From an uncultured Candidatus Saccharibacteria bacterium (lineage in GTDB: Bacteria > Patescibacteriota > UBA1384 > DTJR01): a DNA stretch of 64,000 nucleotides. The stretch lies in the NCBI GenBank assembly GCA_964580065.1, contig CAZOJE010000001.1, positions 23,717-87,716 of the forward strand, read 5' to 3'. Every line of letters begins with the position of its first letter. The first letter of the stretch is position 1. Shown here piece after piece: positions 9,725-24,882 of this stretch. Position numbers and translations under genes: made by a program. The notes under the pieces are model-generated. The model was not told where the DNA came from. It saw nothing but the letters and a program-made list of their open reading frames with translations, and did no database searches.

Positions 9725-9801
9725 GCCCCTGTAGCTCAACTGGATAGAGCGCCTGGCTTCGGACCAGGAGGTTGTGGGTTCGAGTCCTGCCAGGGGTACC
9801 A
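9725..9801 (+). tRNA. tRNA-Arg (anticodon TCG)
   Basis: GCCCCTG-TA-GCTC-AACTGGATA-GAGC-G-CCTGG-CTTCGGA-CCAGG...TTCGAGT...CAGGGGT-A-CCA. Confidence 0.85.
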
Positions 9802-9906
9802 GACAATTTGGTTCTTGGCGACCGGAATGCCGTCATCGCCAAAAATCGACAGGTTAACGACAAAAATAAAAAATGGCTCAAAAGCCATTTTTTATTTGAT
9901 CAAATC

Positions 9907-10458: not shown

Positions 10459-10524
10459 AAGATTAACTTAACAAAAGTACACCACTCTTAACAAGAGTTC
10501 GATTTCTTCTGAAGATTCGGTCTG

Positions 10525-11928: not shown

Positions 11929-12100
11929 TGCCTAAACCTTAGAAATTTTCTAAGGCATGGCATAAAATCCTTCGCAGATAATGAGCTCGTCGTCAGAGCA
12001 TCTGCGAAGGTTGTGATCCGAAAGGATTGCAGGTAGCCGTAAAAAGCTATCGCTGGCGGCGGGCTTTTTGTATCCGCTTCCGGTTAATCGAGGCAAGAAA

Positions 12101-13240
12101 ATGAAAATATTACATTTAAATCCGGATAAGAAATGGGTTCCGGTTGAAAAGCGATACTATAACGATGAAGCTCAACTTCAAGATCTCTTAACAAACGATG
12201 TTAACACTCTTCCGCTTGATGAAATAGGGTATGATTCCAAATTCGTCACAATAGGAAAGGAAGTAATCCTTCAAAATGGTGCGCTGGATGTTTTGGCGGT
12301 CAGTCCTCAAGGCCACATTGCTTTGATTGAAACAAAGCTCGAGAAAAACCCCGAAGTAAAGAGGACAGTCGTCGGTCAAATCCTCGGTTATGCCGCCTAT
12401 CTTTGGAATAAATCTTATGAAGAGATTGAAGGTAATTGTTTTAGAAAATTCCTACTCCAGCGTAAGGTCAATTTTCAAGGTTCGTTGTGTGAATATATGA
12501 AAGAGAAGATAGGAGAGGAGAATTTCTCAGAATCTGAATTCAAAGAAGGCCTGGAAAAGCGGCTTCGTCTCGGCAGTTTTACTCTTCTGATTGTTGTCGA
12601 TCAGGCCAATCAAGAGCTTAAAGATATCGCTAACTACCTGAATGATCGAACTGGGCAAGAAATCGACTTCTATGTGGTAGAGATGCAATTGGTTGGTGAT
12701 GAACAAGAGCATTTTTTGATACCCAGTCTAGCCAACCCTCCACGAAAAAATATTACCTACTCTGAGAAATCCAAGTCTAACGACAGCTATGATCGAACAC
12801 CGATTGCCAAAGAGGACTTTATAAAATTATTATCACAAAATGGCAAGAGAATTGCCGAAGCACTCCTTGGAAAATTTGAGGCAAGGGATGATGTAGATAT
12901 TGTTTGGCGCAAGAATGGATTCTCGCTGATGGCTAAGTATCCGAAGGATTTTGCCGTACCTGGTTATTCCACAAAATTTTCATTCTTATTTTTTAAGGCT
13001 CCTTCAAATGAACAAGACAGCGAGGAGCTTCAGTTTGGTTATTGCGAATGGCCCTATGAAAACATTCCCAAGCTCAAACCATTTATTGATGAATATGTTA
13101 GTTTCTATCGAACTATGCCTGGATACGACGCAAAACGTAAAACAACTAATGCGTTCAATGAATTTACCGTAGAACAGCAGAATAAATTTATTGGTCTCAT
13201 AGAGGAATCAGCTCGAGAATTAAAATCAAAAGTTTTATAA
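12101..13240 (+). CDS. PD-(D/E)xK nuclease-like hypothetical protein (NucS/DUF91-type motif in the N-terminal domain)
   Basis: ALDVLAVSPQGHIALIETKLEKNPEVKRTVVGQILGYAAYL fits the D...E.K core plus the Q-x-x-x-Y of NucS/DUF91-type restriction-endonuclease-fold proteins. The remaining 280 aa are unassigned. Confidence 0.5.
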   Translation: MKILHLNPDKKWVPVEKRYYNDEAQLQDLLTNDVNTLPLDEIGYDSKFVTIGKEVILQNGALDVLAVSPQGHIALIETKLEKNPEVKRTVVGQILGYAAYLWNKSYEEIEGNCFRKFLLQRKVNFQGSLCEYMKEKIGEENFSESEFKEGLEKRLRLGSFTLLIVVDQANQELKDIANYLNDRTGQEIDFYVVEMQLVGDEQEHFLIPSLANPPRKNITYSEKSKSNDSYDRTPIAKEDFIKLLSQNGKRIAEALLGKFEARDDVDIVWRKNGFSLMAKYPKDFAVPGYSTKFSFLFFKAPSNEQDSEELQFGYCEWPYENIPKLKPFIDEYVSFYRTMPGYDAKRKTTNAFNEFTVEQQNKFIGLIEESARELKSKVL

Positions 13241-13264
13241 ATAGTAATTAAGATTGGGGGAAAT

Positions 13265-13846
13265 ATGGCAAAGCAAACGTTTTCGAAAAAACAGCTTCTA
13301 ATAGCTGTAGGGGCAGCGGTAGTAATCTTTCTGATCGGATTTTATTCAGGAGATGCTTATCGCGTAAATAGAATTAAGAGTGCATTTAACAGCATCGGCT
13401 CGTTAGGCGAATCTCCCGATCTCAATAAAGACAAGAAACTGGTAGAAAAAAAGCTCGGGGAAGAAATCGATATTGTTAAGATGAAACTAACTGTTAATAA
13501 ATCCGAGGAAAAGAATTCCATATCAAGCAAATATGGTGATGCGAAGTCGGCTAAAGATAATGCAAAATTTGTCGTAGTAGATTTATCTGTTACAAACTCA
13601 ACTGATAGTGAATTTAACTTTTCTCCGAATAACACACTTCAACTGGTTGATAATCAGAATAGAAAGTATAAAACATACGACGACTCAATTGGCACAGTCG
13701 ACAACTATCTAGATGTGCGTGAACTATCACCAAGCATTGCCGAATCGGGCGTTCTCGTTTATGAGATTCCAAACGATGCCAGTAATTACTCACTTTGGAT
13801 CGATAAAGATGGATCTAGCGACAGATTCCAAGTCGGCCTAAAGTAA
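13265..13846 (+). CDS. membrane-anchored DUF4352-like protein
   Basis: N-terminal TM helix. KFVVVDLSVTNSTDSEFNFSPNNTLQLVDNQNRKY...GVLVYEIP pattern. Confidence 0.6.
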   Translation: MAKQTFSKKQLLIAVGAAVVIFLIGFYSGDAYRVNRIKSAFNSIGSLGESPDLNKDKKLVEKKLGEEIDIVKMKLTVNKSEEKNSISSKYGDAKSAKDNAKFVVVDLSVTNSTDSEFNFSPNNTLQLVDNQNRKYKTYDDSIGTVDNYLDVRELSPSIAESGVLVYEIPNDASNYSLWIDKDGSSDRFQVGLK

Positions 13847-13923
13847 CCGAGTCAGAAACCTCTTCCATACCTGTTACCTTGGTGATACTATTATATAAAT
13901 AATATCAACTTATTTATAATCAA

Positions 13924-16900
13924 ATGAAAGAAGAGCTAAAAGATATAAAAAGTAATATCGAGATTATGAATCTCATTAGGTATTGCCAAGGTTATATAAA
14001 GCTTGTTAATCCCTCGTTCAATAGATTCAGAATAAATTCTGACCCTATCGAAGAAAAATATCTAAGTACCGATATTCTATATCAAGACAGCGATGAGGAA
14101 GATGAATTTGAAATAAATCTGACAGAGTTTTACGAGAATGACCCTAAAAACGTTCCTGAAGAAGCAAAAGAAGAATATGCACAGCAAAAAGAACTCGCGC
14201 AACAGCTCGAGCAGATTAAGAATCGTTTTAATATAAGTGAGTACACAAAGCAGGTTAATCTCAATTTCGGATATTTTAAGGTAGAAGTGCCCGAACCGGA
14301 AGTAGATGAATTCTCTGAAGATGATACGGAGGAGAATAAGCCCAAGAAGAAAAAATCCGATATTTATCCATTATTCTCTTTACCAATTGAAGTTATAGTC
14401 GACAGGAAGTTTTCGATAAAATTGAAGGATGTGAATATTATTCCAAATATCGGTTTCTTATTCGATGTCCTTGGCGAAGAAAAATTTTATGAATTTGCTG
14501 ATTTTATAAACAAACAAGAGATAGAAGGAGCCCTCAGACTTCCGATACAAAAAAGAACTATCGATAACATATGGGCTGAGTTGAAAGCCAAACTTAAGCT
14601 TTCAGAAGCAATTTTTGACGAAAAGTCATTCGATCCTGATTTCTTTCTAGTTTCTCTTTCAGGCAAATCGAATTATTTCCTAGAGCAAGATTTTAATTCT
14701 TTGCTACAACTTGAAGAAACGGAATTTGAAGATACTTCACTGAGCAGCTGGAATACGGATGATCAACTATCAATAGATGAGCCAGTTAATGAACGAGACG
14801 GCGAATTATTTTTTCCATTTCCATACAATAAAGATCAGGTTGGCGTTCTATCTGCAATTAAAAATAAGGCTTGTATTGTAGAGGGACCTCCAGGCACAGG
14901 TAAATCTCAAACGATTGCAAATCTGTTGTGTCATTTTGCTGCAAATGGCAAAAGAGTGTTGTTCCTTAGCCAAAAAGCTCAAGCAATTAAGGTTGTGAAG
15001 GATTACTTAAAAAAACTAGATGTTCAATATCTTTATGGTTATATACCAAATAGATATTCCAGTCTCTATAATAGTGAAGAAGAAAGGGACGGTGCTTCAA
15101 TTTCATTACAATCAATTCATTTATATCTCAACTCATTAGCCTATGATGCTACTGATCAGACAGAAGAAGATCCAAGATCTATAAAATTTGAAGTTGAAGA
15201 TAAAATAAACGAAACCATAGAAATTGAAAGGAAAATTTACAGTACCTATCAAGAAAAAGAAGCATTAGAAAAATATAACATTGTAGCACTTGATTTTCAT
15301 AAGTTTAATAGCTCGGATGATGATGAAATATTACAACTTTTGGAATTAGATCAAACTATTGATGAGCTAAAGAGACAACTAGATAAATATTATTCGGAAA
15401 ATTCCAAGTATGTAATAAGGTTAAATAAATTGTTCGCAAATATTGATACGAACAATAGTCATTACTCTTTAGCAATCAACGGAGTAATAAACGATATACC
15501 GCAGAATGCATTTGAAAGGGATGGATTGATTCAAAATTTAAAAAAACAACTTATCAAGAACCATTTGAAAAAATATACAAATACCTTGCCGAAAGAAGTT
15601 TACAGTTTTTTTCAAGAGATAATAGATAAATCCACCTCAAGAGCAGAGAAGATAAAAGAACTAAATGGGTTAAAGGATTATTTCAGCTTTTGTGAAAATA
15701 CAATAAAGAATGAGTTGGATCATGTCGACTTTAATGGGCGACTAGAACGGATTGGTCTCAACCAGAAAAGTTTTAATAAACTTAAAAAAATTGTTAGCTC
15801 CGATCAGCATGGATTGGAAAATATACGAAGATACTCGCAAGTTCACTCAGAGATCGAAGAAATTAAACTTAGTAATCCGAATGAGCTAAATAAATATTTG
15901 CATAAAATACAGGATGCGGAAGGAAAGTATATTGCGAATTATCTTCAAAATATAATAATCAATAATCTTAGGGAGATCACTAAAAATGCGACGATCAAAG
16001 GAATCTTGGCAAGAATCGCTAAGAGCTTACAAAAGAGCAAGAAAGCATATAAGACATTCGACAAGTTTAAAAACGAGCCGATCAATTTTTATGTTATGAG
16101 AGAAGCGGTTCCTATCTGGATCATGGACTTGGAAGATGTAAGCAGGCTCATACCACTAGAAAAAAACTTATTCGATTATGTAATTCTCGATGAGGCCTCA
16201 CAATGCAATATCGCATATGCAATGCCTGCAATGTTCAGAGCAGAGAGAGCAATTTTGGTTGGTGATAGTGAGCAGATGAGGGACGACTCAGTAAGGTTTA
16301 AAACTAATAAGTCTTTGGAAATGCTGGCTAAAAAATTTGATATTCCCGACTTCTTGCAGATAAAGGCTATTGGAGATTCAGTTCAGTCAATTATTGATAT
16401 CGGTTACAAGAGAGGCTTTATGATGAAGCCATTAACTTATCACTATAGGTCGCCTAAAGAGCTTATCGGATTTTCAAACGATAATTTCTATGCGCCAAAA
16501 GGTAAAAAATTAAAGGTAATAAACACTAATTATCTGACCTATAAAGATACGAATAGAGTTTTAGTTAATCACATCATAAAACCAAGCAAGGAATTAGACA
16601 TTTCCAGCAAGTCGAATATTGCAGAAGCCAAATATATTTGCAAATTAGTAGAAGAGCTCAAAACAGATCCTAAGACAAAAAATAAGTCCATAGGGGTTCT
16701 ATCCTTCTTTGCTAATCAGGCAGCTCTTTTGAGAGATATGATAAAAGATGAAAAAATTAAAGTTTCTATTATTGAAGGAATCCAGGGAGACGAGAAAGAT
16801 ATAATTATTTACTCAATGGTAATTTGCGACCCAGGTCAAAAAAGAATGTATATTCCCCTAACTGGTGAAGGCGGAGAAATAAATAAAGGATTAAACGAAG

Positions 16901-18039
16901 GTCGAGTAAATGTTGCCTTTTCACGAGCAAGGCAGCAAGTTCATATCGTCACAAGTTTACCGGTAGAAAAATGGTCGGATGGAATCTGGATTAAAAGATA
17001 TCTTGAACATGTTCAAAAAAATGGCGAGGTAGATTTTTTTGAAACTGAGCTGAAGCCATTCGACTCTAAATATGAAGAAGATTTCTATCAAGAGATTTTA
17101 CGAGCCAATTTCACAAAAGGTTATATTATCCAAAATCAAGTTGAAAGCTGTGGATTTAAAATCGATTTCGTTCTAACAAATGTAGATAATGGAAAACAGT
17201 TGGCAATTGAATGTGACGGACCAACCCATTTTGAAAGTGAAGATGAAGGCGTTTATGTTCAGAGCGATTTCGAAAGACAGGCAATACTAGAAAGCGCCGG
17301 CTGGGTTTTTTATAGAACTAATTATGCCGATTGGATAAATAGGAATTTTAATCGAGCAACAATCACAGACGATATAAGTAGACACTTCGAGCTTTCAATA
17401 TTCAATAGCGAAGAAGATGAATCCACCAAACCGAATAAGGAAAGTGGCGATGAAGTAATCGACATAGATGTTGATGATTTAGAGGCACCCGATCAAAACG
17501 TAAAAGAGGGGAAGATATTCTCCGACACCTCAACTAAACTACCGGAAAAGGCTTTGCATCCCGTTGAGATGAAGATTGAAACAAAGAAAACTCAAAAAGA
17601 AAAATTAAGCGAGAAGAAAGATCGTCCGCACGCGAATAGTTTTAAAGATATATTTAAGTTTCCATTAGGTGGTAAAAGGAAACTTGTGGTTTCATCGTTT
17701 AATGATGACGAAGATTTAATAATTACAGAATATATAGAAACAGATTCCTATACAGGATATACACAGAAAAACATTGTTTTAAGTAAGAAAGACATTTTCC
17801 AGTTTGTTACAAAGTCTAGAGAGGTAATAAAGGACTCTGGAGAAGAAACGGTCCCTTGGCGAGGAAATGAAAAAGAAAAAATTATGATACGAATGATTGA
17901 TGATTCTACTATTGATGTCAGACAATATTTGAATACCAGTTGGTATTCTGGTTATACCAAAAAGGGGTTTAGGCTCGATAGTAAGACGTGGTCTAAATTT
18001 CTTGATGTATTGGAAAAAACAATAAGCCTCACAGAATAA
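13924..18039 (+). CDS. Upf1-like SF1 helicase (AAA_11/AAA_12, COG1112-type) fused to a DUF559/Vsr-like PD-(D/E)xK endonuclease domain, with a C-terminal extension containing a duplicated YTGYTQKNIVL / YSGYTKKGFRL module
   Basis: Walker A VEGPPGTGKSQT. Walker B VILDEASQ. Motif III/IV region YHYRSPKELIGFSNDNFY. Motif VI VAFSRARQQVHIV. Then KIDFVLTNVDNGKQLAIECDGPTHF...ERQAILESAGWVFYR is a DUF559-type nuclease. The acidic N-terminal region of about 300 aa is unassigned. Confidence 0.85.
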   Translation: MKEELKDIKSNIEIMNLIRYCQGYIKLVNPSFNRFRINSDPIEEKYLSTDILYQDSDEEDEFEINLTEFYENDPKNVPEEAKEEYAQQKELAQQLEQIKNRFNISEYTKQVNLNFGYFKVEVPEPEVDEFSEDDTEENKPKKKKSDIYPLFSLPIEVIVDRKFSIKLKDVNIIPNIGFLFDVLGEEKFYEFADFINKQEIEGALRLPIQKRTIDNIWAELKAKLKLSEAIFDEKSFDPDFFLVSLSGKSNYFLEQDFNSLLQLEETEFEDTSLSSWNTDDQLSIDEPVNERDGELFFPFPYNKDQVGVLSAIKNKACIVEGPPGTGKSQTIANLLCHFAANGKRVLFLSQKAQAIKVVKDYLKKLDVQYLYGYIPNRYSSLYNSEEERDGASISLQSIHLYLNSLAYDATDQTEEDPRSIKFEVEDKINETIEIERKIYSTYQEKEALEKYNIVALDFHKFNSSDDDEILQLLELDQTIDELKRQLDKYYSENSKYVIRLNKLFANIDTNNSHYSLAINGVINDIPQNAFERDGLIQNLKKQLIKNHLKKYTNTLPKEVYSFFQEIIDKSTSRAEKIKELNGLKDYFSFCENTIKNELDHVDFNGRLERIGLNQKSFNKLKKIVSSDQHGLENIRRYSQVHSEIEEIKLSNPNELNKYLHKIQDAEGKYIANYLQNIIINNLREITKNATIKGILARIAKSLQKSKKAYKTFDKFKNEPINFYVMREAVPIWIMDLEDVSRLIPLEKNLFDYVILDEASQCNIAYAMPAMFRAERAILVGDSEQMRDDSVRFKTNKSLEMLAKKFDIPDFLQIKAIGDSVQSIIDIGYKRGFMMKPLTYHYRSPKELIGFSNDNFYAPKGKKLKVINTNYLTYKDTNRVLVNHIIKPSKELDISSKSNIAEAKYICKLVEELKTDPKTKNKSIGVLSFFANQAALLRDMIKDEKIKVSIIEGIQGDEKDIIIYSMVICDPGQKRMYIPLTGEGGEINKGLNEGRVNVAFSRARQQVHIVTSLPVEKWSDGIWIKRYLEHVQKNGEVDFFETELKPFDSKYEEDFYQEILRANFTKGYIIQNQVESCGFKIDFVLTNVDNGKQLAIECDGPTHFESEDEGVYVQSDFERQAILESAGWVFYRTNYADWINRNFNRATITDDISRHFELSIFNSEEDESTKPNKESGDEVIDIDVDDLEAPDQNVKEGKIFSDTSTKLPEKALHPVEMKIETKKTQKEKLSEKKDRPHANSFKDIFKFPLGGKRKLVVSSFNDDEDLIITEYIETDSYTGYTQKNIVLSKKDIFQFVTKSREVIKDSGEETVPWRGNEKEKIMIRMIDDSTIDVRQYLNTSWYSGYTKKGFRLDSKTWSKFLDVLEKTISLTE

Positions 18040-18048
18040 AGGACAAAT

Positions 18049-18834
18049 ATGTGGTTCTGGATATTTGTAATCGGCGGCATAATTTTATATGCAATTGCTA
18101 ACTCTGGTAAGGAAAAGAGTAAACCAAATATTAGATATTCTTATAAAGTCAGTGAACCTAACTACAACACTGAATACTCATTTAAACCAGCGAAGCCGAG
18201 TGCGCTTCCAGAGAATGATCCCGTTATTGACGCACTGCGAGGATATATAGAGGCGGGCTGGGAAATAAAAATAAGATACTGCAATTCAAGCGGAACTACT
18301 ACTAGCAGAAGGATAAAACCTTTAGAAATTCTGGTATGGAACGGCCAGTATTATTTGAAGGCAGTCTGCCTATTAAGAGAGGAAGAAAGAACGTTTAAAA
18401 TTAAGAGAATACTCGCAATAAACGATGAGAGTATTGAAAAGAAAAGAGAGACAAAGGCTCAATTTATAAGAAGTAGGGTATTGCTTGTTGAAAAAAACGA
18501 GGAAATATTAGCTAGTTGTAAATCTTTTTTGAGAAAAAATAGAATTTCAACTTCAACCGCTCAAGATGGAATTTCAGCTTTAGACAAGGCCGAGAAAGGC
18601 AACTTCGATTTGATTTTCCTCAGTCAAAATATCCCATACGTTAGTGGAATTGAGGTACTCCGCAATATCAAAAAAAGAGGTTTGACTGGAGCGAAAGTAG
18701 TTATGGTAACAACTAAACCAGATGCAAAAATAAAGGAAGAGGCCGAGCGACTTGGTGTAAGCGACTACTTTGTGTTTTCGGATGATTCTAAGGAGGAGCT
18801 TACTTCTGCCCTGGAATATTTCTTATCACAATAA
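18049..18834 (+). CDS. membrane-anchored WYL-domain + response-regulator receiver (REC) fusion protein
   Basis: N-terminal TM helix WFWIFVIGGIILYAIA. WYL domain IKIRYCNSSGTTTSRRIKPLEILVWNGQYYLKAVCLLREEERTFKIKRI. REC domain with VLLVE, FDLIFLS (phospho-acceptor Asp), VVMVTT and KP. Confidence 0.75.
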   Translation: MWFWIFVIGGIILYAIANSGKEKSKPNIRYSYKVSEPNYNTEYSFKPAKPSALPENDPVIDALRGYIEAGWEIKIRYCNSSGTTTSRRIKPLEILVWNGQYYLKAVCLLREEERTFKIKRILAINDESIEKKRETKAQFIRSRVLLVEKNEEILASCKSFLRKNRISTSTAQDGISALDKAEKGNFDLIFLSQNIPYVSGIEVLRNIKKRGLTGAKVVMVTTKPDAKIKEEAERLGVSDYFVFSDDSKEELTSALEYFLSQ

Positions 18835-18840
18835 ATAATT

Positions 18841-20094
18841 ATGAATAAAATAATCCTACAAATATCTGAGCTCAATAAATTAATATCCGACCATATTAAT
18901 CATCTCGAGGAATTTGAGGTTGAAGCAGAAATTTCCGACTGGAGGCTGTTCGGTGGAAAGCTTTTCTATTTTAAGCTCAAAGACAAAAAATCATCCGTTT
19001 CCGCAATGACAAACATTTTTGAGTTAACAAACTGGAGAGATTTTGAGGATGGCATGTTGGTCCGCGCAAAAATTTCAATAAAGTTCAATCAGCTCAAAGG
19101 CACTCTCTATGCATGGGTCGAGGAAATGAACCCACACGGCGAAGGTGCTTTAAAGATAGCTTTCGAGAAGCTTAGAAAACGTCTCGAAACAGAGGGATTG
19201 TTTTCCCAAGAAAGAAAGAGGCATATTGTTCGTTACCCACAACGCTTAGGACTCATTACCTCCAAGGATGGTGCTGCAATCAAGGATTTCGAAAAGATAT
19301 TAAATTCGAGGATGGGAGGCCTGACTATTTATTTTCATCCCGTCAAAGTTGAAGGGAAAGATGCTGTTCCCAGCATTATTGAAGCTTTTTCTTATTTTAA
19401 CAATTTTAAAGAATCGCTTGATGCTATAGTTTTAATTCGAGGAGGCGGTAGTCTTGAAAATCTTCAGGTATTTAATGATGAGAGGATAGCCCGATGTGTT
19501 GCGGGTTCTCGTTACCCAGTCATTTGTGGGGTTGGCCACGAGCATGATGTAAGTTTGTGTGATTTGTGTGCTGACGTTAGAGCTTCGACACCGTCCAATG
19601 CAGCTGAATTGCTTGTCGAGAACAAGGTCCATACACAGAAGATTATAGACACATCGTTAGATAAAATCAGGGGCATCATCAAATTCAAAATTGGTGGAAC
19701 CTCCCAGCAAATAGAGAGCCATTTATTGTTAATCAGCCACTCCATCAAGAACGAACTTCAAAGTAAAAAACTTATCGTTATCGAAATTAATTCTTCGCTT
19801 TTTCGTTATAAATCACAATTTAGTAATTTTGAGCAACAAATTTCTCAATCAGTTGTATCGATATCAAGAGTATTTGTTCACAGATTAGATATTTCTAAAC
19901 AATACCTCGCTCAAACAGCTGTTTTTCTTAAATCGGTAAGTCCTAAAAATATAATGGCAATGGGATATTCTGTTGTCAAAGACGAAAAACAAAAAATCGT
20001 ACGAGACTCCGAACAGTTAGAAATAGAATCTAACTTATGCGCCTACTTTTTAAAGGGGTCTATTAAAGCTAAAGTAATTAAGAAAGGGGTATAA
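18841..20094 (+). CDS. xseA: exodeoxyribonuclease VII large subunit
   Basis: LGLITSKDGAAIKD...LIRGGGSLENLQVFNDERIARCVAGSRYPVICGVGHEHDVSLCDLCADVRASTPSNAAE matches conserved XseA blocks. Confidence 0.9.
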   Translation: MNKIILQISELNKLISDHINHLEEFEVEAEISDWRLFGGKLFYFKLKDKKSSVSAMTNIFELTNWRDFEDGMLVRAKISIKFNQLKGTLYAWVEEMNPHGEGALKIAFEKLRKRLETEGLFSQERKRHIVRYPQRLGLITSKDGAAIKDFEKILNSRMGGLTIYFHPVKVEGKDAVPSIIEAFSYFNNFKESLDAIVLIRGGGSLENLQVFNDERIARCVAGSRYPVICGVGHEHDVSLCDLCADVRASTPSNAAELLVENKVHTQKIIDTSLDKIRGIIKFKIGGTSQQIESHLLLISHSIKNELQSKKLIVIEINSSLFRYKSQFSNFEQQISQSVVSISRVFVHRLDISKQYLAQTAVFLKSVSPKNIMAMGYSVVKDEKQKIVRDSEQLEIESNLCAYFLKGSIKAKVIKKGV

Positions 20095-20095
20095 A

Positions 20096-20296
20096 ATGCC
20101 AGAAGAAAAGACTTTTGCAGAAAAAATGAAAGAATTAGATACTATAAAGGAAAAATTTGAATCGGGAAATTTCGATTTAGAGAAAGATTTGCCGTTATAT
20201 AAGAGAGCTGTTCAGCTTGCTACCGATTTAAAAGAGCATCTGAATAAGCTCGAGAATGAGATTATAGAGATCGAAGCAAAAAAGGAAAATGAATAA
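20096..20296 (+). CDS. xseB: exodeoxyribonuclease VII small subunit
   Basis: 66-aa coiled-coil protein FAEKMKELDTIKEKFESGNFDLEKDLPLYKRAVQL, immediately after xseA. Confidence 0.85.
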   Translation: MPEEKTFAEKMKELDTIKEKFESGNFDLEKDLPLYKRAVQLATDLKEHLNKLENEIIEIEAKKENE

Positions 20297-21830
20297 AAAA
20301 GATAAAAAGATAACAGCTTCCATTCTTTATGACTATGTTCAGTGCCCACACAAAGTATGGCGGGATGTTTATGGTCCACAAAATGAGAAAATCATCGAGC
20401 CAAATCCTTTTGTAGAGTTGCTATGGCGGAAGGGTATACAACACGAAAAAAGGGTTGTGTTGACCTTTGGCGAATATCTTGATTTAAGTAAGGGAACCCT
20501 GGATGAGCGAATCTCAAAAACCATCGAAGCTCTCAGGGATGAAGTGCCATTGATTTATCAAGGGGTATTAAAACATGAAAATTTACTTGGAATACCCGAC
20601 CTCTTGAAACGCCAGTCTGACGGATCATACATTCCTATCGACATTAAGTCTGGTTCAGCCTTTGAAGGTGGAAGTGATGATGGCGCTGGGGATGAGGGTA
20701 AACCAAGATTACATTATGCAATTCAGCTCTGCTTGTATAATGAACTGTTAAAGAAACTTGGATTTGCAGAGCATGATAAAGGTCAAGTGATCGATATACA
20801 TCACGACCAGGTTGAATATGATCTATCGGCGCCCAAAGGATTAAGAGATAAGACGACTTGGTGGAAAAATTACGAAAAGATAAAAACTGATGTTAGGTTA
20901 CTTATGCTGGACCAGACAAAAAATAAGCCGTCTTATTCGAGTAAATGCAAGTTGTGCCCCTGGTATCAAAGTTGCAAGAGGTGGTGCAAAGAAAATAATG
21001 ATCTGACGAATATTTTTGACATGGGAAGAGCTAGTAGGGATAGAATAAACGAAGACCTCTATATCGAAAATTTAAATGATTTAATGTCGATTGATATTGC
21101 TTCGATAATGCAACAAAAAGAACAAGAAAAAAAGGCAGGAAATAAAACTTTTCTATTTAACATTTCCGACAACACCCTGAAGAAGGCTGTTGAAAGAGCG
21201 AGAATCTCTTTAATAACTAAGATTCCTGTATTATACGAACCGATTGATTTTCCCGATGTGAGTTATGAACTTTTTTTTGACATTGAAGATGATCCGACTC
21301 AGGAATTTGTATATTTACACGGTGTCTATGAGAGAAGAAACGGCGCAGAGCGTTTTCTAGATTTTACGGCTAAAGAAATTAGTCCTGAGGCCGAAAAAGA
21401 GGCATGGGCCAACTTTTGGAAGTATATTGACTCGCTACCACAAGATGATTTTACGGTTTACTATTACACGCATCATGAAAAGACAACATATACCAAAATG
21501 CAAAAGCTCTATCCGGATGTGATATCAGCGGAAAAGATTGAGAATTTTTTTTCAAATCCTAACGTGATCGATTTGTACAAAGTTGTACGATCAAAGACAA
21601 ACTGGCCTGTACCAAGTTATTCACTCAAAGAGATTGCGGTTTACCTCGGCTTTGAATGGCGCGATGAAACACCTTCTGGCGCACTCTCCATCCAGTGGTT
21701 TAATGAGTATATAGAGAAGAAAGATCCTAAGATGTTGGAGAGAATACTGCTCTATAACGAAGATGACTGTAAAGCAACGTTAGTTATTAAGGATGCAATT
21801 AGTAAGTTAAATAATGAGTTGGCTAAGTAA
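20289..21830 (+). CDS. RecB-family nuclease, TM0106 type (Cas4-like PD-(D/E)xK N-domain with Cys cluster + C-terminal RNase H-like exonuclease-fold domain)
   Basis: YDYVQCPHKVW...IPDLL...IDIKSG matches the Cas4/RecB nuclease core. Cys cluster CKLCPWYQSC..C. C-terminal YNEDDCKAT. Confidence 0.7.
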   Translation: MNKKDKKITASILYDYVQCPHKVWRDVYGPQNEKIIEPNPFVELLWRKGIQHEKRVVLTFGEYLDLSKGTLDERISKTIEALRDEVPLIYQGVLKHENLLGIPDLLKRQSDGSYIPIDIKSGSAFEGGSDDGAGDEGKPRLHYAIQLCLYNELLKKLGFAEHDKGQVIDIHHDQVEYDLSAPKGLRDKTTWWKNYEKIKTDVRLLMLDQTKNKPSYSSKCKLCPWYQSCKRWCKENNDLTNIFDMGRASRDRINEDLYIENLNDLMSIDIASIMQQKEQEKKAGNKTFLFNISDNTLKKAVERARISLITKIPVLYEPIDFPDVSYELFFDIEDDPTQEFVYLHGVYERRNGAERFLDFTAKEISPEAEKEAWANFWKYIDSLPQDDFTVYYYTHHEKTTYTKMQKLYPDVISAEKIENFFSNPNVIDLYKVVRSKTNWPVPSYSLKEIAVYLGFEWRDETPSGALSIQWFNEYIEKKDPKMLERILLYNEDDCKATLVIKDAISKLNNELAK

Positions 21831-22785
21831 TTTATTTTCGAGCGAACCTGCTAAAACAAATCAAAACGCTGTTTGCGTTACTAAAAGCGAAATAATTGCT
21901 GGCTCGAGATTTTCTATACCCGAGCCAACTAGGTCGTTGGTTTTTGTAACTGATGATTCTCCCGATAAAGCCCAAGCTCTAGGGCCATCAATAAGGATTA
22001 CTTTCAATCTGGGTAGTCTTGAAACCGAACGGGAGGTTGAAGAAGGAAATATTTTTTCCGAACCTAGCCTAATATGGACAAGACTTCCAATAAAACCAAA
22101 TAGTGATTTAGAAGATAAGCCAATGTATTATCCATGCTATGTCCATCTAAATCCTCTGCAGAGATATCAGTATCTTAGTTGGCTTCAGGACGTTACCAAG
22201 AAGACAAATTTGAGCTATGTCTTTTTATATTATTATGGTCTCGAAAGGCACCTATTGATCGGTGACTATGATAAAGCAGTTGATGAAATACTTAGATTAA
22301 TTAAATATCATGATCATGATAAATTTCGCTACTATGTAATTACACCACTTATCGTTGCCAGCCTGTACAGAAAGAGGGTGGATGTATTCAAAAAGGCTGA
22401 CTTTTTGTCTCGCGAGGTTTCCAATGAAGCACTGATCATGCGAGCCCTACAGAATATTCACTTAAATGCTGATGACTTGATCAAATTATCTTCATCGGTC
22501 GGGTTTAGAAATAAGAGGTATATTCATCAGAAGCCAGAATTATTTAAAGAAATTCTGATTGAAAAAATGCAAGAAGATGAAGCAAAAAGCGTCCCCATTC
22601 TCAATAGGTTCGAAATAAGTCAGCTCCAAAAGGAAAAAATATCTGCTTTTTGCAATCTATCGATCCCGGAGAGATTCAAAAAGCTTGAGACTCCCCAGCT
22701 CTTAAGGAATAAGCGCTTTGAAAAATTAATTTTCAACTTAATAACCGAAACTCACGCAGAAGTGAAGATCAGAAAAGAAGTATAA
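21814..22785 (+). CDS. TerB-N domain-containing protein (hypothetical; conflict-system associated)
   Basis: YYPCYVHLNPLQRYQYLSWLQD...SYVFLYYYGLERHLL matches, as I remember it, the TerB_N signature (Y.FLYlYGLERR). Confidence 0.5.
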   Translation: MSWLSNLFSSEPAKTNQNAVCVTKSEIIAGSRFSIPEPTRSLVFVTDDSPDKAQALGPSIRITFNLGSLETEREVEEGNIFSEPSLIWTRLPIKPNSDLEDKPMYYPCYVHLNPLQRYQYLSWLQDVTKKTNLSYVFLYYYGLERHLLIGDYDKAVDEILRLIKYHDHDKFRYYVITPLIVASLYRKRVDVFKKADFLSREVSNEALIMRALQNIHLNADDLIKLSSSVGFRNKRYIHQKPELFKEILIEKMQEDEAKSVPILNRFEISQLQKEKISAFCNLSIPERFKKLETPQLLRNKRFEKLIFNLITETHAEVKIRKEV

Positions 22786-22814: not shown

Positions 22815-24413
22815 TCAAGATCTCCTATATGGCAGCCCATCTGACCCGAACTCAATCGAAGAGCTTTTGCCCGGTCCCCAAGGATGGCGATTTAATCTCT
22901 TGAACATCTCTCGATCGTCTTTGTCTCCCCAATCCTCGCCTCGTCTTTTTCCTAAAGTTCCACTAATTAGGCCATTGGTCTCAACAAACAGGACGCCACA
23001 ATTACTTGGCATTTTCTCAATTAGTCCAAGAATTAAGATGCTAAATGCATCTGCCATGTCATCATGTCTTGTTCTACCGAAATCCACGAGTTGCTTGATC
23101 AGTTCTTCGCAGCCATTTCGGGGAAAATACACTTTGCTCTGGTAAACCTTATTGGCAGCAAGTTCGAGGCGTTCTCTTTTATCTTTGCCTCTAATTTTGA
23201 CTCCAACTGCATCGATGTTGCGCTCCCTTAACTGTTGAGTCACATAGCCCTGAAGCATCGTATCTTCAACATAAAACTTATTGCTGAATCTGCCATCGTG
23301 TACTTTGCAGATATCCTCGGCACGCTCCAGAATTTCAGTAAATTTCAGGCGTGCATTGACGGGGTTTGGCAAGATATAAACTTCAAAGTTATCGCCCGAT
23401 CCAACAACTTTTGCCGAAACAAGCGAGGTAAAATCAGCTGTCGCTTTTTCGCTAATTGCCAAGTCAATTCCGGTGGCGAAACTATAGGATTGATTTCGTA
23501 AGTTTTCTGGCAGTTTATCGTAGTATTGAATCTTGTCTTCGGTAATGACACGCTCTCTGTCATCAATAATGTGAAGCAGATATTCTTTATTCCATGTTTT
23601 TTCGTCTCCAACTCGGAGTCGTTCATCTTCGACTGCCTTCAAATCCTCGTACTTTCCAGGCCAGGCAATATTGTCATACTCATCAAGAAGCGGATATTTT
23701 CTGAATATTCCCGAGAGCTTCTCGTGGACAATAAGATTTTCAAGACGCTTCAGTAAGCTGTCTTCGTGAAGCAGATTACCGACTATTATGATTTTAGTTC
23801 CCTTATCACCGAGAGGGAACACTTCGCTCGTTAACCAGTTGAAAGTACTCTCTCTGGCTTCCTGTGTTTTCACCGAATCTGTGTTCTCAACATCGTCAGC
23901 TACTATCAGGTCCGGGCGATATCGGCCGTGTCTGATGCCGCGAAAACTTTGATCCTTGGATACGGCAATGATTTTGGCGTTGTACCGGGGAATAACTAAA
24001 CTACAATTATTCCACTCATCGGTTTCTTGAAAGGGACCAAGATCACGCTTCAATAAGTCGTTTGTTTCAAGCTCGCGTTTTAAGTTTTTGAAGTGAAGTT
24101 TGGCCTGTTCGGCAGTCTGCGAGATTAATACCACAAACTTCTTTTGTGGACGTCCAACAACGGCCCAGATTGGATAGCTTAGAGTCATAAGCGTTGATTT
24201 GGCTGATCCGCGAAAACTACATATAGCGGCGAGACTTATATCATCTCGCTCAGTAATCGCAAACATTTCTTTGTGAAATTCTGCAATTTTGTACTGAACG
24301 AATGAACTTAAGTAGGTGTGAAAGAACCATACATGGCTTTTCTTGGTTAGATCTGCCCTTGTTGCTTGGTTTTTGATGATTTTACTTATTTGGTTTTTCT
24401 TTTTTCTTTTCAT
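22815..24413 (-). CDS. phage terminase large subunit
   Basis: Walker A-like SFRGSAKSTL. Walker B LIVADDVEN. C-terminal RNase H-like nuclease ATGIDLA...RHDDMADAF. Confidence 0.85.
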   Translation of the reverse strand: MKRKKKNQISKIIKNQATRADLTKKSHVWFFHTYLSSFVQYKIAEFHKEMFAITERDDISLAAICSFRGSAKSTLMTLSYPIWAVVGRPQKKFVVLISQTAEQAKLHFKNLKRELETNDLLKRDLGPFQETDEWNNCSLVIPRYNAKIIAVSKDQSFRGIRHGRYRPDLIVADDVENTDSVKTQEARESTFNWLTSEVFPLGDKGTKIIIVGNLLHEDSLLKRLENLIVHEKLSGIFRKYPLLDEYDNIAWPGKYEDLKAVEDERLRVGDEKTWNKEYLLHIIDDRERVITEDKIQYYDKLPENLRNQSYSFATGIDLAISEKATADFTSLVSAKVVGSGDNFEVYILPNPVNARLKFTEILERAEDICKVHDGRFSNKFYVEDTMLQGYVTQQLRERNIDAVGVKIRGKDKRERLELAANKVYQSKVYFPRNGCEELIKQLVDFGRTRHDDMADAFSILILGLIEKMPSNCGVLFVETNGLISGTLGKRRGEDWGDKDDREMFKRLNRHPWGPGKSSSIEFGSDGLPYRRS

Positions 24414-24882
24414 TTTCCTCTCCTTTGGAAGTAATGAGCGTGGCCAGTTCTAGTGCTTTCATAATGCTCTCTTCCTGCTCCTTAGTTAACTCATCTTTTT
24501 TGATTTCTAGACCACCCGATACCTCAAGTTTATTCTTGTAGGCGTTGTGGCGGTGATTGAGCCAATACATCACAGCGGTCAGATTATTATCTTTCATCGC
24601 TGTAATGAGCTTGCTTTCTGCCAAATCATTTATGAATTGGCAACCCTCCTCAATTGCTTTATCACTTGAAGCAGCAAATTTTTTGCTTGCTTTTCGCCAG
24701 CGATAATATGTATTTCGACTGATACCAACTTTTTGGCAAGCGACTTCGATAATTGGGGTTTTGCTGAATTGCTCAACTAGGGTTTTTTGATTTTGCGCAG
24801 TTCTGATCTGAATCTTCGAATCTACATCACTCATTTTGCCTTCTTGATCAGCTCTGACTTTTGCCCGGTGAATTTTTCCCAA
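24382..24882 (-). CDS. putative terminase small subunit (HTH protein)
   Basis: Overlaps the terminase large-subunit start. HTH CQKVGISRNTYYRWRK. Position and size are typical. Confidence 0.5.
   Translation of the reverse strand: MGKIHRAKVRADQEGKMSDVDSKIQIRTAQNQKTLVEQFSKTPIIEVACQKVGISRNTYYRWRKASKKFAASSDKAIEEGCQFINDLAESKLITAMKDNNLTAVMYWLNHRHNAYKNKLEVSGGLEIKKDELTKEQEESIMKALELATLITSKGEENEKKKEKPNK

What the first reader, a model, noticed from the sequence alone, without database searches (positions are those of the whole stretch)
13924..22785. Six tightly coupled + strand genes interleaving Exonuclease VII (xseAB) with a helicase-nuclease, a WYL-REC protein, a Cas4-like RecB nuclease and a TerB-N protein
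The inter-gene distances are 10, 7, 2, -8 and -17 nt, so all six genes are almost certainly one operon. xseAB is normally a housekeeping ssDNA exonuclease. Here it is sandwiched between a candidate defence effector with its regulator and a TM0106-family nuclease plus a TerB-N protein. The TM0106 nuclease has a Cys-cluster PD-(D/E)xK N-domain and an RNase H-like C-domain. TerB-N is a domain from Ter-type stress and conflict systems. Either Exo VII has been recruited as the degradative arm of a composite defence or DNA-processing system, or a defence module has inserted into the xse operon. Either would be new.
Basis: inference. Interest (0 to 1): 0.8.

Follow-up and report, generated by a model that had tools for sequence, protein, structure and literature searches.

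The report
Exonuclease VII genes inside defence island
The six tightly packed genes are real, but comparison with related genomes shows an ordinary Exonuclease VII gene pair sitting in a spot where interchangeable anti-phage gene cassettes keep being swapped in on both sides, not a fixed six-gene machine.

Summary
In detail: six intact + strand ORFs (13924-22785) with junctions of 9, 6, 1, -8 and -17 nt and the stated domains.

The window is a chromosome segment of a Patescibacteria (Berkelbacteria-like) bacterium. The array breaks into three separable units:
- **A:** a PDC-S37/Hhe-like SF1 helicase with a Vsr-fold nuclease, plus a WYL/pseudo-receiver protein. This pair recurs at 68-74% identity without xseAB (L041, L042).
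- **B:** canonical xseAB with its catalytic residues intact.
- **C:** a TM0106 nuclease, plus TerB_N in 3 loci. It is 55-77% identical across phyla. It lies beside restriction or defence-type genes in most of 24 contexts. xseA is nearby in only 3 of them.

In xseA's closest relatives the gene ending 10 nt or less before xseA differs from genome to genome: type I RM, type IIG RM, or other helicase-nucleases. One relative has no defence genes at all. Three other Patescibacteria have xseAB in plain housekeeping settings, one with a 9-nt junction to hexokinase.

The best reading is a long-lived defence and mobile-element hotspot (tRNA, serine recombinase, LOOT sRNA) built around native xseAB. Co-transcription is likely. 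Obligate recruitment of Exo VII is not supported, but it is not excluded.

The parts
13924..18039 (+). Unit A effector: a 1371-aa SF1 (Upf1/Dna2-like) helicase. It has Walker A GPPGTGKS (aa 321-328), DEAS (aa 756-759), a Vsr-fold MTES_1575/DUF559 nuclease (aa ~1054-1140, ECDG motif) and a C-tail with a weak PC4-like signal.
   Evidence: Pfam. NCBIfam ProA 1.5e-69 and Hhe 1.5e-39, both far below their cutoffs. PADLOC PDC-S37 9e-69. Motifs read from the sequence. PC4 E=0.0024. Orthologues at 74% identity (L041) and 68% (L042).
18049..18834 (+). Unit A partner: a 261-aa protein with an N-terminal hydrophobic helix, a WYL domain (aa 59-124) and a degenerate receiver domain (aa 144-241) that lacks the acceptor Asp. 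No HTH.
   Evidence: Only 3 relatives were found among 5.8 billion proteins. The two whose contigs were long enough to read both lie directly downstream of the same helicase type.
18841..20094 (+). xseA, the Exonuclease VII large subunit (417 aa): OB fold plus catalytic core. The residues equivalent to E. coli D155, R205, H238 and D241 are conserved.
   Evidence: TIGR00237 319.6 bits, above the cutoff of 180. Pfam. Alignment to 8TXR. The nearest relatives form one small clade at 58-74% identity; everything else is at 43% or less.
20096..20296 (+). xseB, the Exonuclease VII small subunit (66 aa).
   Evidence: TIGR01280 44.6 bits, above the cutoff of 35. 74-88% identical to the xseB of clade relatives.
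20289..21830 (+). Unit C: TM0106-family nuclease (513 aa). The N-terminal half is a Cas4-like Fe-S PD-(D/E)xK domain (C19, C220, C223, C229; D104, D118-x-K120, Q146xxxY). The C-terminal half is an RNase H-like/DEDD domain (FDIED).
   Evidence: TIGR03491 243.8 bits, above 97.45. Pfam. Motifs. More than 120 clusters at 58-77% identity across phyla. 24 distinct contexts examined.
21814..22785 (+). Unit C partner: TerB_N-domain protein (323 aa). Its start overlaps the end of TM0106 by 17 nt.
   Evidence: Pfam TerB_N 5.8e-14. PADLOC SngA 4.6e-13. 45-46% identical homologues directly follow TM0106 in L025 (same 17-nt overlap) and in L035.
9725..11928 (-). Left backbone of the hotspot: tRNA (9725-9798, + strand), a 183-aa ORF (9907-10458, -) and a large serine recombinase (10525-11928, -).
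   Evidence: 73% nucleotide identity over 2.1 kb to L008-L010, where the same trio precedes a type IIG RM gene and xseAB.
11929..12051 (+). LOOT small RNA (RF03000). It abuts the start codon of the recombinase gene.
   Evidence: 93.6 bits against a gathering score of 46.4. LOOT also lies near xseAB in L001, L006, L008 and L023/24. It was not found in any TM0106 locus scanned that lacks xseAB.
12068..13846 (+). Two co-directional genes upstream of the helicase: a 390-aa protein with no family match (a homologue follows LOOT in L023/24) and a DUF4352 protein (matches phrog_806).
   Evidence: The 390-aa protein is 29% identical to its L023 homologue.
22815..26159 (-). Convergent phage-derived remnant: large terminase (22815-24413), a small-terminase-like HTH protein (24382-24882) and a ParB-N6/N4 DNA methyltransferase (24831-26159). 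No structural genes follow.
   Evidence: phrog_38 4.4e-77, phrog_4102 and phrog_498. Pfam. No relatives in IMG/VR. Homologues of the ParB-MTase and the HTH protein lie about 1-3 kb upstream of TM0106, on the opposite strand, in L018.

Best explanation
The six genes form a mosaic, not a conserved system. They sit in a long-lived defence and mobile-element hotspot of a Berkelbacteria-like Patescibacteria chromosome. The hotspot's recurring landmarks are a tRNA, a large serine recombinase, the LOOT small RNA and the native Exonuclease VII genes.

**Shown by comparison**
- xseAB is lineage-specific and is conserved in place. The genes touching it on both sides are replaced from genome to genome.
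- Unit A (SF1 helicase/Vsr-fold nuclease plus a membrane-anchored WYL/pseudo-receiver protein) is a self-contained pair found elsewhere without xseAB.
- Unit C (a TM0106 Fe-S PD-(D/E)xK plus DEDD nuclease, here with a TerB_N partner) is a horizontally spreading cassette. It attaches to many different restriction or defence systems.

**Inferred**
- All six genes are probably transcribed together from the AT-rich 77-nt gap upstream of 13924, because the junctions are 9 nt or shorter.
- Unit A acts like single-protein helicase-nuclease defences such as Hhe and PDC-S37. The motor translocates on invader DNA and the Vsr-fold domain nicks or cuts it. The WYL domain would sense a DNA or nucleotide cue.
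- TM0106 trims the resulting ends in both polarities. Its fusion to SF1 helicases in proteobacterial plasmids (a Dna2-like layout) argues that it works alongside such a motor.
- Exo VII does its normal housekeeping job of degrading single-stranded DNA. It may opportunistically help clear unwound strands, but neither flanking unit requires it in cis.
For: **xseAB is the conserved anchor and its neighbours vary.** Relatives of XseA at 58-74% identity show a different upstream neighbour in each genome:
- L006: type I hsdM-hsdS-hsdR, then xseAB, then an OLD/AriA-like ATPase.
- L008-10: serine recombinase, type IIG RM (934 bits), xseAB, then PycTM.
- L001: a PDC-S37-like helicase (427 bits), TM0106, a 194-aa gene, then xseAB.
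- L007: the L001-type helicase (70% identical), then xseA directly.
- L004: TyrRS, ArgRS, DUF5677, then xseAB, with no defence genes.

In the blastn alignments, homology to relatives begins 6 nt before the xseA start (L008-10) or within its first 21 nt, and ends within about 15 nt of the xseB stop.

**Unit A occurs without xseAB.** L041 has the helicase at 74% and WYL-REC at 60% identity, with neither xseAB nor TM0106. L042 has the helicase at 68% and WYL-REC at 41%, followed directly by TM0106 at 67%.

**Unit C is independently mobile.**
- It is 55-77% identical in proteins named from many phyla.
- Across 24 distinct contexts it sits beside Eco57I/MmeI-type RM, McrBC, a type III Res helicase, RmuC, PLD-HTH, SIR2, DUF3644 and MBL-fold genes.
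- xseA is present in only 3 of those 24 contexts.
- TerB_N follows TM0106 in 3 of the 24, with the same -17 nt overlap in L025.

**Vertical versus horizontal signal (window against L023).** XseA 32%, XseB 38% and the 390-aa neighbour 29% identical, against serine recombinase 55% and TM0106 58%.

**Baseline.** Three other Patescibacteria have xseAB in housekeeping contexts. In L040 a hexokinase gene ends 9 nt before xseA.

**Enzyme integrity.** The XseA catalytic residues are conserved.

**Helicase link.** TM0106-SF1 helicase fusions occur on proteobacterial plasmids.
Against: - A large restriction-type or helicase-nuclease gene ends 10 nt or less upstream of xseA in 5 of 6 clade members. A purely random hotspot need not give such uniform junctions.
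- Helicase-nuclease + TM0106 + xseAB recurs in three lineages (window, L001, L023/24) with three barely related helicases (24-27% identical). This could mean selection for the combination.
- In L042, WYL-REC is followed directly by TM0106. In the window, xseAB therefore sits inside what may be one A+C operon.
- LOOT lies upstream of xseAB in the window but downstream in the four relatives. The block has been rearranged, and it could itself be mobile.
- Whether a second xseAB exists in this genome is unknown: only 64 kb of a 155,876-nt contig was visible.
- Base composition and codon usage do not separate native genes from acquired ones.
Confidence: 0.62

Rival explanations
1. Functional recruitment. 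In this CPR clade, Exo VII (with TM0106) serves as a fixed downstream 'exonuclease slot'. It is co-expressed with whichever restriction or helicase-nuclease module sits upstream. It finishes the degradation of unwound or cleaved invader DNA, a clean-up role that (from general knowledge of E. coli, not tested here) RecBCD performs after restriction.
For: - In 5 of 6 clade genomes a defence nuclease or helicase gene ends 2-10 nt before xseA on the same strand.
- The helicase + TM0106 + xseAB trio recurs in L001 and in the distant L023/24.
- Five consecutive junctions of 10 nt or less are denser than the window's norm of 29%.
- There is a precedent for housekeeping Exo VII serving a defence system: it matures retron msDNA (bioRxiv 10.1101/2023.03.15.532788).
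Against: - Units A and C occur without xseAB in most of their loci.
- L004 and three other Patescibacteria have xseAB with no defence neighbours.
- A 9-nt junction to an unrelated hexokinase gene shows that tight spacing is not evidence of function in these genomes.
- xseA carries an in-frame TGA in L008-10 while the flanking RM gene is intact.
- No PADLOC model matches XseA or XseB.
Confidence: 0.15
2. Element-borne copy. The whole stretch from the tRNA at 9725 to about 27 kb is one integrated serine-recombinase element or degraded prophage. It carries its own xseAB as cargo, and the host's housekeeping copy (if any) lies elsewhere.
For: - A large serine recombinase lies next to a tRNA on the left. 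A terminase, a small-terminase-like protein and a ParB-methylase lie on the right.
- Recombinases of this family overlap tRNA 3' ends in other TM0106 islands.
- The position of xseAB relative to LOOT differs between the window and L008, as expected if the block moves.
- XseA homologues do occur in phage records, for example Gordonia and Klebsiella phages.
Against: - XseA has few close relatives, all from one clade. It diverges in step with non-mobile neighbours and far more than the recombinase or TM0106.
- xseAB-LOOT linkage persists down to 32% XseA identity, while LOOT is absent from TM0106/recombinase islands that lack xseAB.
- There are no phage structural genes, and the terminase points toward the recombinase.
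- No att-like repeats were found.
- XseA, TM0106, the terminase and the recombinase have no relatives in IMG/VR.
Confidence: 0.13
3. Repair operon, not defence. The helicase-nuclease, TM0106 and Exo VII together form a DNA-end resection and repair pathway, perhaps in place of RecBCD/AddAB in a reduced genome.
For: - TM0106 fused to an SF1 helicase has a Dna2-like layout.
- UniRef names one TM0106 cluster after the YprB ribonuclease H-like domain. From my own knowledge, B. subtilis YprB is the repair exonuclease MrfB.
- The window also carries uvrABC, fpg and recO further downstream.
Against: - The helicases at this slot are only 24-27% identical between genomes whose XseA is 66-68% identical. 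That is the turnover pattern of defence genes, not of repair genes.
- Their best matches are PADLOC defence candidates.
- TM0106 sits beside RM, McrBC, SIR2 and ubiquitin-like (Bil-type) defence genes.
- Recombinases and phage remnants surround the locus.
Confidence: 0.07

Closest known systems
Defence islands and integration hotspots flanked by core genes (tRNA- or recombinase-associated variable regions)
   Same: The flanks are conserved (tRNA-183aa-serine recombinase, xseAB, LOOT) while the content between and beside them is entirely different. That content is mostly defence-type: type I and IIG RM, PDC-S37-like helicases, an OLD/AriA-like ATPase, PycTM, TM0106.
   Different: The anchor gene pair lies inside the co-directional array, not at its edge, with junctions of 10 nt or less on both sides. 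The hotspot appears to persist down to 32% XseA identity and is marked by the CPR-specific LOOT small RNA.
Exonuclease VII (XseA/XseB) of E. coli (PDB 8TXR) and Thermotoga maritima
   Same: Both subunits exceed the NCBIfam equivalog cutoffs. XseA has the OB fold and catalytic core, and the D155/R205/H238/D241 equivalents are conserved.
   Different: No functional difference is evident. Only the genomic setting is unusual. The clade lacks a PF01336 hit but keeps the PF13742 OB fold.
Single-protein helicase-nuclease defences: Hhe (Gao_Hhe), NCBIfam ProA and the PADLOC candidate PDC-S37
   Same: An SF1 helicase of the AAA_11/AAA_12 type followed by a Vsr-fold MTES_1575/DUF559 nuclease. The alignments cover aa ~690-1227.
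   Different: The scores are far below family cutoffs (234.9 against 1500 for ProA; 135.3 against 2000 for Hhe). No DUF4011 N-domain was detected. The helicase is paired with a WYL/pseudo-receiver gene and carries a PC4-like tail.
TM0106-family RecB-like nucleases, including Dna2-like TM0106-SF1 helicase fusions on proteobacterial plasmids
   Same: A full-length TIGR03491 match, a Cas4-type 4-Cys cluster and an RNase H-like C-domain. It lies close to SF1 helicases, as in the fused forms.
   Different: Here it is a stand-alone 513-aa protein from a subfamily that is 55-77% identical across phyla. It is paired with TerB_N, and its biochemical function has not been tested.
Shango (SngABC) and Ter-type TerB-N conflict systems
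   Same: The last gene matches the TerB_N part of SngA (4.6e-13).
   Different: None of the other five genes matches an SngB or SngC model. The partner here is a nuclease, not an ATPase or helicase pair.
Retron msDNA maturation by housekeeping Exo VII
   Same: It is a precedent for native XseAB being used by an anti-phage system (10.1101/2023.03.15.532788).
   Different: There, xseAB acts in trans and is not linked to the system. There is no reverse transcriptase or ncRNA of that kind here.

Membership tests
Exonuclease VII (XseA/XseB) | XseA and XseB exceed the curated equivalog cutoffs | tested here: met
   TIGR00237 319.6 bits against 180; TIGR01280 44.6 bits against 35.
Exonuclease VII (XseA/XseB) | Catalytic residues equivalent to E. 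coli D155, R205, H238 and D241 | tested here: met
   The alignment to 8TXR shows ...AAIKD......IRGGGSL... and ...GHEHD... at the corresponding positions. The PDB chain has GAETD, apparently an H238A variant. Residue roles are taken from my recollection of PMC3439923, which was listed but not opened.
Exonuclease VII (XseA/XseB) | ssDNA-specific, bidirectional exonuclease activity | not testable with these tools
   Needs biochemistry.
TM0106 family RecB-like nuclease (TIGR03491) | Full-length match above the cutoff, with a PD-(D/E)xK N-domain and an RNase H-like C-domain | tested here: met
   243.8 bits against 97.45, covering aa 8-502. PDDEXK_1 and RNase_H_2.
Cas4 (CRISPR-associated) | Score above the TIGR00372 cutoff | tested here: not met
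   40.9 bits against a cutoff of 65. The 4-Cys motif is present.
Cas4 (CRISPR-associated) | Adjacent CRISPR array and cas genes | tested here: not met
   The tandem-repeat scan of the window found no array, and the Rfam scan found no CRISPR repeat family. No cas families appeared among the flanking genes scanned.
Hhe / ProA / PDC-S37 helicase-nuclease defence proteins | Curated whole-protein score | tested here: not met
   ProA 234.9 bits against 1500; Hhe 135.3 against 2000. The matches cover only the helicase C-half and the nuclease.
Hhe / ProA / PDC-S37 helicase-nuclease defence proteins | SF1 helicase followed by a Vsr-fold (MTES_1575/DUF559) nuclease | tested here: met
   AAA_11, AAA_12, MTES_1575 and DUF559. 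Walker A, DEAS and ECDG motifs.
Hhe / ProA / PDC-S37 helicase-nuclease defence proteins | DUF4011 N-terminal domain (Hhe) | tested here: not met
   No DUF4011 hit in the window protein. There is a weak hit (E=0.0075) in the L001 helicase only.
Shango (SngABC) | A TerB-type SngA together with SngB and SngC partners | tested here: not met
   There is an SngA-like match (4.6e-13), but none of the other five genes matches an SngB or SngC model.
WYL-domain transcriptional regulators (BrxR/CapW/PafBC type) | N-terminal (w)HTH DNA-binding domain followed by WYL | tested here: not met
   WYL is present (9.4e-13), but no HTH family hit was found. Residues 1-20 are hydrophobic.
Two-component response regulators | Phospho-acceptor Asp, the acidic pair and the conserved Lys of the receiver domain | tested here: not met
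   Aligned to PorX (8p6f): the acceptor D is S, DD is EK, and K is F.
Defence island / integration hotspot | Variable, defence-enriched gene content between flanks that are conserved in related genomes | tested here: met
Conserved multigene defence system (the six genes as one unit) | The same gene set co-occurs across independent genomes | tested here: not met
   No other locus has all six genes. Unit A occurs alone (L041). A+C occurs without xseAB (L042). Unit C occurs with many other partners. xseAB occurs with RM systems or with nothing.
Intact prophage | Terminase together with portal, capsid and tail genes, and att sites | tested here: not met
   Only the terminase, the small-terminase-like protein and the ParB-MTase were found. 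No att-like repeats. No relatives in IMG/VR.

The most novel reading that the evidence does not exclude
In a clade of ultra-small CPR bacteria, Exo VII (together with the TM0106 nuclease) may have become the permanent, shared 'clean-up exonuclease' of a swap-in defence operon. Whatever restriction enzyme or helicase-nuclease lands in the slot immediately upstream would then be transcriptionally fused to xseAB and would depend on it to destroy the unwound or cut invader DNA. This would be a modular effector-plus-common-exonuclease architecture that has not been described for any defence system.
Probability: 0.12. Interest if true: 0.7.

Novelty: new variant of a known kind. Interest (0 to 1): 0.35.

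Why it matters
As it stands, this is an example of a defence-island hotspot in a poorly studied phylum. It is useful mainly because it flags two untested candidate modules:
- an SF1 helicase-nuclease paired with a rare membrane-anchored WYL/pseudo-receiver protein;
- a TM0106 + TerB_N nuclease pair from a subfamily that is spread across phyla and lies beside restriction or defence-type genes in most of the contexts examined.

If the minority reading were true, with Exo VII as a shared degradative arm, it would show a housekeeping nuclease being built into immunity operons in organisms with reduced DNA-repair gene sets. That reading is directly testable by reconstituting the cluster with and without active xseA.

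Tried and rejected
- **Nucleotide search against phage records.** Megablast of the whole cluster found no match.
- **Protein searches of annotated phage and plasmid records.** XseA matched phage records only distantly, at 38% identity or less. TM0106 had no phage match and only distant plasmid matches at 21-24% identity.
- **IMG/VR scans.** XseA, TM0106, the terminase and the recombinase found no relatives. The 'intact prophage' idea was dropped.
- **GTDB genome scan with XseA.** It returned only an unrelated Bacteroidales locus. The second-copy question could not be addressed.
- **Exact cluster look-up.** It gave no accession or organism name.
- **Composition.** GC, GC3 and codon-usage distance were tested as a native-versus-foreign discriminator and were uninformative.
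- **Search for att-type repeats.** Direct and inverted repeat searches around the island gave only chance-level short matches.
- **Promoter and terminator scan.** Counts equalled those in shuffled sequence.
- **Literature.** I found no paper describing Exo VII as part of a defence locus, other than retron msDNA processing. Two hits were only library-preparation methods. No paper on this TM0106 subfamily or on ProA was found. The LOOT motif is not discussed in the main text of its source paper.
- **Cas4/CRISPR reading of gene 5.** Rejected: the score is below the cutoff and no array was found.
- **Classical two-component or WYL-HTH regulator reading of gene 2.** Rejected: no acceptor Asp and no HTH.

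Full report
**1. The observation**

The six + strand ORFs are present exactly as described. They are separated by 9, 6 and 1 nt, and then overlap by 8 and 17 nt.

The domain assignments hold:
- an SF1 helicase (AAA_11/AAA_12) with an MTES_1575/DUF559 Vsr-fold nuclease;
- a WYL + receiver protein;
- xseA (TIGR00237, 319.6 bits, cutoff 180) and xseB (TIGR01280, 44.6 bits, cutoff 35);
- a TM0106-family nuclease (TIGR03491, 243.8 bits, cutoff 97.45; PDDEXK_1 + RNase_H_2);
- a TerB_N protein, which also matches the TerB_N part of Shango SngA at 4.6e-13.

The sequences look catalytically intact:
- The helicase has GPPGTGKS, DEAS and an ECDG nuclease motif.
- TM0106 has the Cas4-type C19...C220-x2-C223-x5-C229 cluster, D...D-x-K, QxxxY and a DEDD-type FDIED motif.
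- XseA keeps the equivalents of E. coli D155, R205, H238 and D241 in the alignment to 8TXR.

Elsewhere in the window only 11 of 38 same-strand junctions are 10 nt or shorter. Five in a row is unusually dense, so co-transcription is plausible. The promoter and terminator scans are no better than shuffled sequence.

Two details in the finding need correcting:
- The WYL-REC protein begins with a hydrophobic helix, has no HTH, and its receiver domain has Ser for the acceptor Asp, Phe for the Lys and EK for the DD pair when aligned to PorX. It is a WYL/pseudo-receiver protein, not a classical regulator.
- The TM0106 protein is Cas4-like in fold and Cys cluster, but it scores below the Cas4 cutoff. 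The window has no CRISPR-like repeat array.

**2. Setting**

The rest of the window is ordinary chromosome: uvrB, uvrA, uvrC, fpg, recO, alr, a PBP and ABC transporters. The XseA relatives that carry names are Patescibacteria, with the nearest named one from Candidatus Berkelbacteria.

The region around the cluster is rich in mobile-element genes.
- To the left lie a tRNA (9725-9798), a 183-aa ORF, a large serine recombinase (10525-11928, minus strand), a LOOT small RNA (11929-12051, 93.6 bits), an unknown 390-aa gene and a DUF4352 gene.
- To the right, converging on the cluster, lie a large terminase (phrog_38, 4.4e-77), a small-terminase-like HTH protein and a ParB-methyltransferase. No structural genes follow them.
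- No att-type repeats delimit an element.
- None of these proteins has relatives in IMG/VR.

**3. What related genomes show about xseAB**

XseA's closest relatives form a small clade at 58-74% identity. Everything else is at 43% or less. The locus of each clade member was fetched and compared.

| Locus | XseA identity | Gene order around xseAB |
|---|---|---|
| L006 | 70% | type I hsdM-hsdS-(protease)-hsdR, xseAB, OLD/AriA/GajA-like ATPase |
| L008-10 | 74% | the same tRNA-183aa-recombinase trio as the window (73% nt identity), one type IIG RM gene (934 bits), xseA, xseB, PycTM |
| L001-3 | 66% | a different serine recombinase, a PDC-S37-like helicase-nuclease (427 bits; 24% identical to the window's), TM0106 (76%), a 194-aa gene, xseAB |
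| L007 | 68% | the L001-type helicase (70% identical to L001's) ending 5 nt before xseA, with no TM0106 |
| L004 | 58% | TyrRS, ArgRS, DUF5677, xseAB, with no defence genes |

- In the blastn alignments, homology to these relatives begins 6 nt before the xseA start (L008-10) or within its first 21 nt. It ends within about 15 nt of the xseB stop.
- Three more distant Patescibacteria have xseAB among metabolic genes. In L040 a hexokinase gene ends 9 nt before xseA. Tight junctions alone are therefore not evidence of shared function in these compact genomes.

**4. What related genomes show about the flanking genes**

Unit A: helicase + WYL-REC
- WYL-REC has only three relatives among 5.8 billion proteins. 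The two whose contigs were long enough to read both follow the same helicase.
- L041 has the helicase at 74% and WYL-REC at 60% identity. Small ORFs and DUF881 genes follow, with no xseAB and no TM0106.
- L042 has the helicase at 68% and WYL-REC at 41% identity. TM0106 (67%) follows 24 nt later, again without xseAB.

Unit C: TM0106 (+ TerB_N)
- TM0106 behaves very differently from XseA. More than 120 protein clusters are 58-77% identical to it. Their names include Berkelbacteria, Gracilibacteria, Peregrinibacteria, Moranbacteria, Nitrospirota, Marinobacter and Alphaproteobacteria. This implies wide horizontal spread.
- I examined 24 distinct contexts. In most of them it sits directly beside a restriction or defence-type gene. 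These include Eco57I/MmeI-type RM with M.Eco57I, another IIG-type methylase-nuclease, McrBC, a type III Res helicase, RmuC, PLD-HTH, SIR2, DUF3644, an MBL-fold gene, and SF1 helicase-nucleases.
- xseA is nearby in only 3 of the 24 contexts (window, L001, L023/24).
- TerB_N follows TM0106 in 3 of the 24 (window, L025, L035), with the same 17-nt overlap in L025.
- Serine recombinases of the window's family lie in 8 or 9 of the 24 contexts. In L014, L015 and L016 the recombinase gene's 3' end overlaps a tRNA 3' end by about 9 nt, and in L001 by about 60 nt.
- On proteobacterial plasmids, distant TM0106 domains form the N-terminal half of proteins of about 1120 aa. The C-terminal half of those proteins is an SF1 helicase. 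This Dna2-like fusion argues that TM0106 works with such helicases.

**5. Vertical versus horizontal signal**

L023/24 comes from a distant lineage and reads: TPR protein, helicase-nuclease, TM0106, HRDC-XseA, XseB, serine recombinase, LOOT, then a homologue of the window's 390-aa gene. Against the window:

| Protein | Identity to the window |
|---|---|
| XseA | 32% |
| XseB | 38% |
| 390-aa protein | 29% |
| Serine recombinase | 55% |
| TM0106 | 58% |

- This fits xseAB, LOOT and the 390-aa gene being old chromosomal neighbours. The recombinase and TM0106 would be the parts exchanged horizontally.
- LOOT lies close to xseAB in the window, L001 (57 nt after xseB), L006, L008 and L023/24. It is absent from every TM0106 locus scanned that lacks xseAB.
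- One oddity is unexplained. LOOT lies downstream of xseB in the four relatives but 6.8 kb upstream of xseA in the window. The block has been rearranged at least once.

**6. Interpretation**

- The best-supported account is that native Exo VII genes lie inside a persistent defence and mobile-element hotspot. The window's array is then a mosaic of unit A, xseAB and unit C.
- Probable co-transcription and the mechanistic roles of A and C are inferences from domain content, from the behaviour of related single-protein helicase-nuclease defences, and from the TM0106-helicase fusions.
- Three rivals remain: functional recruitment of Exo VII, an element-borne xseAB copy, and a repair operon. I give them about 0.15, 0.13 and 0.07.
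- The main support for recruitment is that 5 of 6 clade genomes place a large nuclease or helicase gene 10 nt or less before xseA. The helicase + TM0106 + xseAB trio also recurs with three barely related helicases.
- Against recruitment, both flanking units usually occur without xseAB, xseAB occurs without them, and xseA carries an in-frame TGA in L008-10 in three independent assemblies.

**7. Comparison with what is known, and novelty**

- xseAB and TM0106 are members of their families by curated score.
- The helicase is architecture-level kin of Hhe, ProA and PDC-S37, but it fails their cutoffs.
- Gene 6 resembles SngA but has no Shango partners.
- Gene 2 is neither a WYL-HTH regulator nor a phosphorylatable response regulator.
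- I found no report of Exo VII as a component of a defence locus. The only link found is housekeeping Exo VII maturing retron msDNA.
- The organisation as a whole is a variant of a known kind, namely a defence island at a recombinase/tRNA hotspot. The helicase + WYL/pseudo-receiver pair and the TM0106 + TerB_N pair are untested candidate modules.

**8. Limits**

- Only 64 kb of the contig was available, so a second xseAB copy and the genome's complement of other exonuclease genes could not be checked.
- The contexts come from metagenomic contigs, some of them short.
- The counts are small, and some loci were found through TM0106 itself, which biases co-occurrence estimates.
- Nothing about transcription or activity was measured.

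Noticed in passing
window 11929-12051 (+); L001 11512-11634; L006 13935-14049 (-); L008 10947-11069; L023 10690-10816: A LOOT small RNA (RF03000, 70-94 bits) abuts the start codon of the serine recombinase gene. It is syntenic with xseAB across genomes down to 32% XseA identity. It lies downstream of xseB in the four relatives but 6.8 kb upstream of xseA in the window. It may mark an integration site.
   Followed up: partly
window 20289-21830; loci L013-L037, L042, L045: This TM0106 subfamily is 55-77% identical in proteins named from many phyla. In most of the 24 contexts it sits directly beside a restriction or defence-type gene (RM, McrBC, Res, RmuC, PLD, SIR2). This looks like a promiscuous accessory nuclease of defence systems.
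   Followed up: partly
L043 5971-9327 (Phenylobacterium plasmid pA); L044 5971-9381 (Pseudomonas luteola plasmid): Distant TM0106 domains form the N-terminal half of ~1120-aa proteins whose C-terminal half is an SF1 helicase (GPPGAGKT...DEAGQ). This is a Dna2-like layout. In L043 it lies next to a ubiquitin-like (E1/E2/multiubiquitin) gene set.
   Followed up: partly
window 18049-18834: The WYL protein has an N-terminal hydrophobic helix, no HTH and a receiver domain that lacks the acceptor Asp, the Lys and the DD pair. Only three relatives exist among 5.8 billion proteins. The two with readable context both follow the same helicase type.
   Followed up: yes
L008 8060-8062 (also L009, L010): xseA is interrupted by an in-frame TGA in three independent assemblies, while the neighbouring 1018-aa type IIG RM gene is intact. 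This is either a pseudogene or a recoding event.
   Followed up: no
L023 7499-9010: The XseA of a distant lineage carries an N-terminal HRDC domain (2.4e-20). Its gene lies between TM0106 and xseB, with a serine recombinase and LOOT following.
   Followed up: partly
L014 53-124/116-1681; L015 2278-2349/2341-3813; L016 9312-10778/10770-10840; L001 192-265/203-1909: Large serine recombinase genes of the window's family end inside the 3' end of a convergent tRNA gene: by about 9 nt in L014, L015 and L016, and by about 60 nt in L001. This suggests tRNA-targeting islands that carry RM and TM0106 cargo.
   Followed up: no
window 22815-26159 (-): A large terminase (phrog_38, 4.4e-77), a small-terminase-like HTH protein and a ParB-N6/N4 methyltransferase converge on the operon. 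No structural genes follow. Homologues of the methyltransferase and the HTH protein lie about 1-3 kb upstream of TM0106, on the opposite strand, in L018.
   Followed up: partly
window 17650-18036 (helicase aa ~1245-1371): The helicase C-tail contains two similar segments with a weak PC4 (ssDNA-binding) match (E=0.0024, below the cutoff).
   Followed up: partly
window 13847-13923: The 77-nt gap upstream of the helicase is AT-rich, with a TATAAT hexamer ending 3 nt before the ATG and no Shine-Dalgarno sequence. The start of the operon may be a leaderless transcript.
   Followed up: no
window 3661-3790: A 61-nt tandem repeat (2.1 copies, TAGTAGG-rich) lies immediately after the tRNA at 3582-3653.
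   Followed up: no
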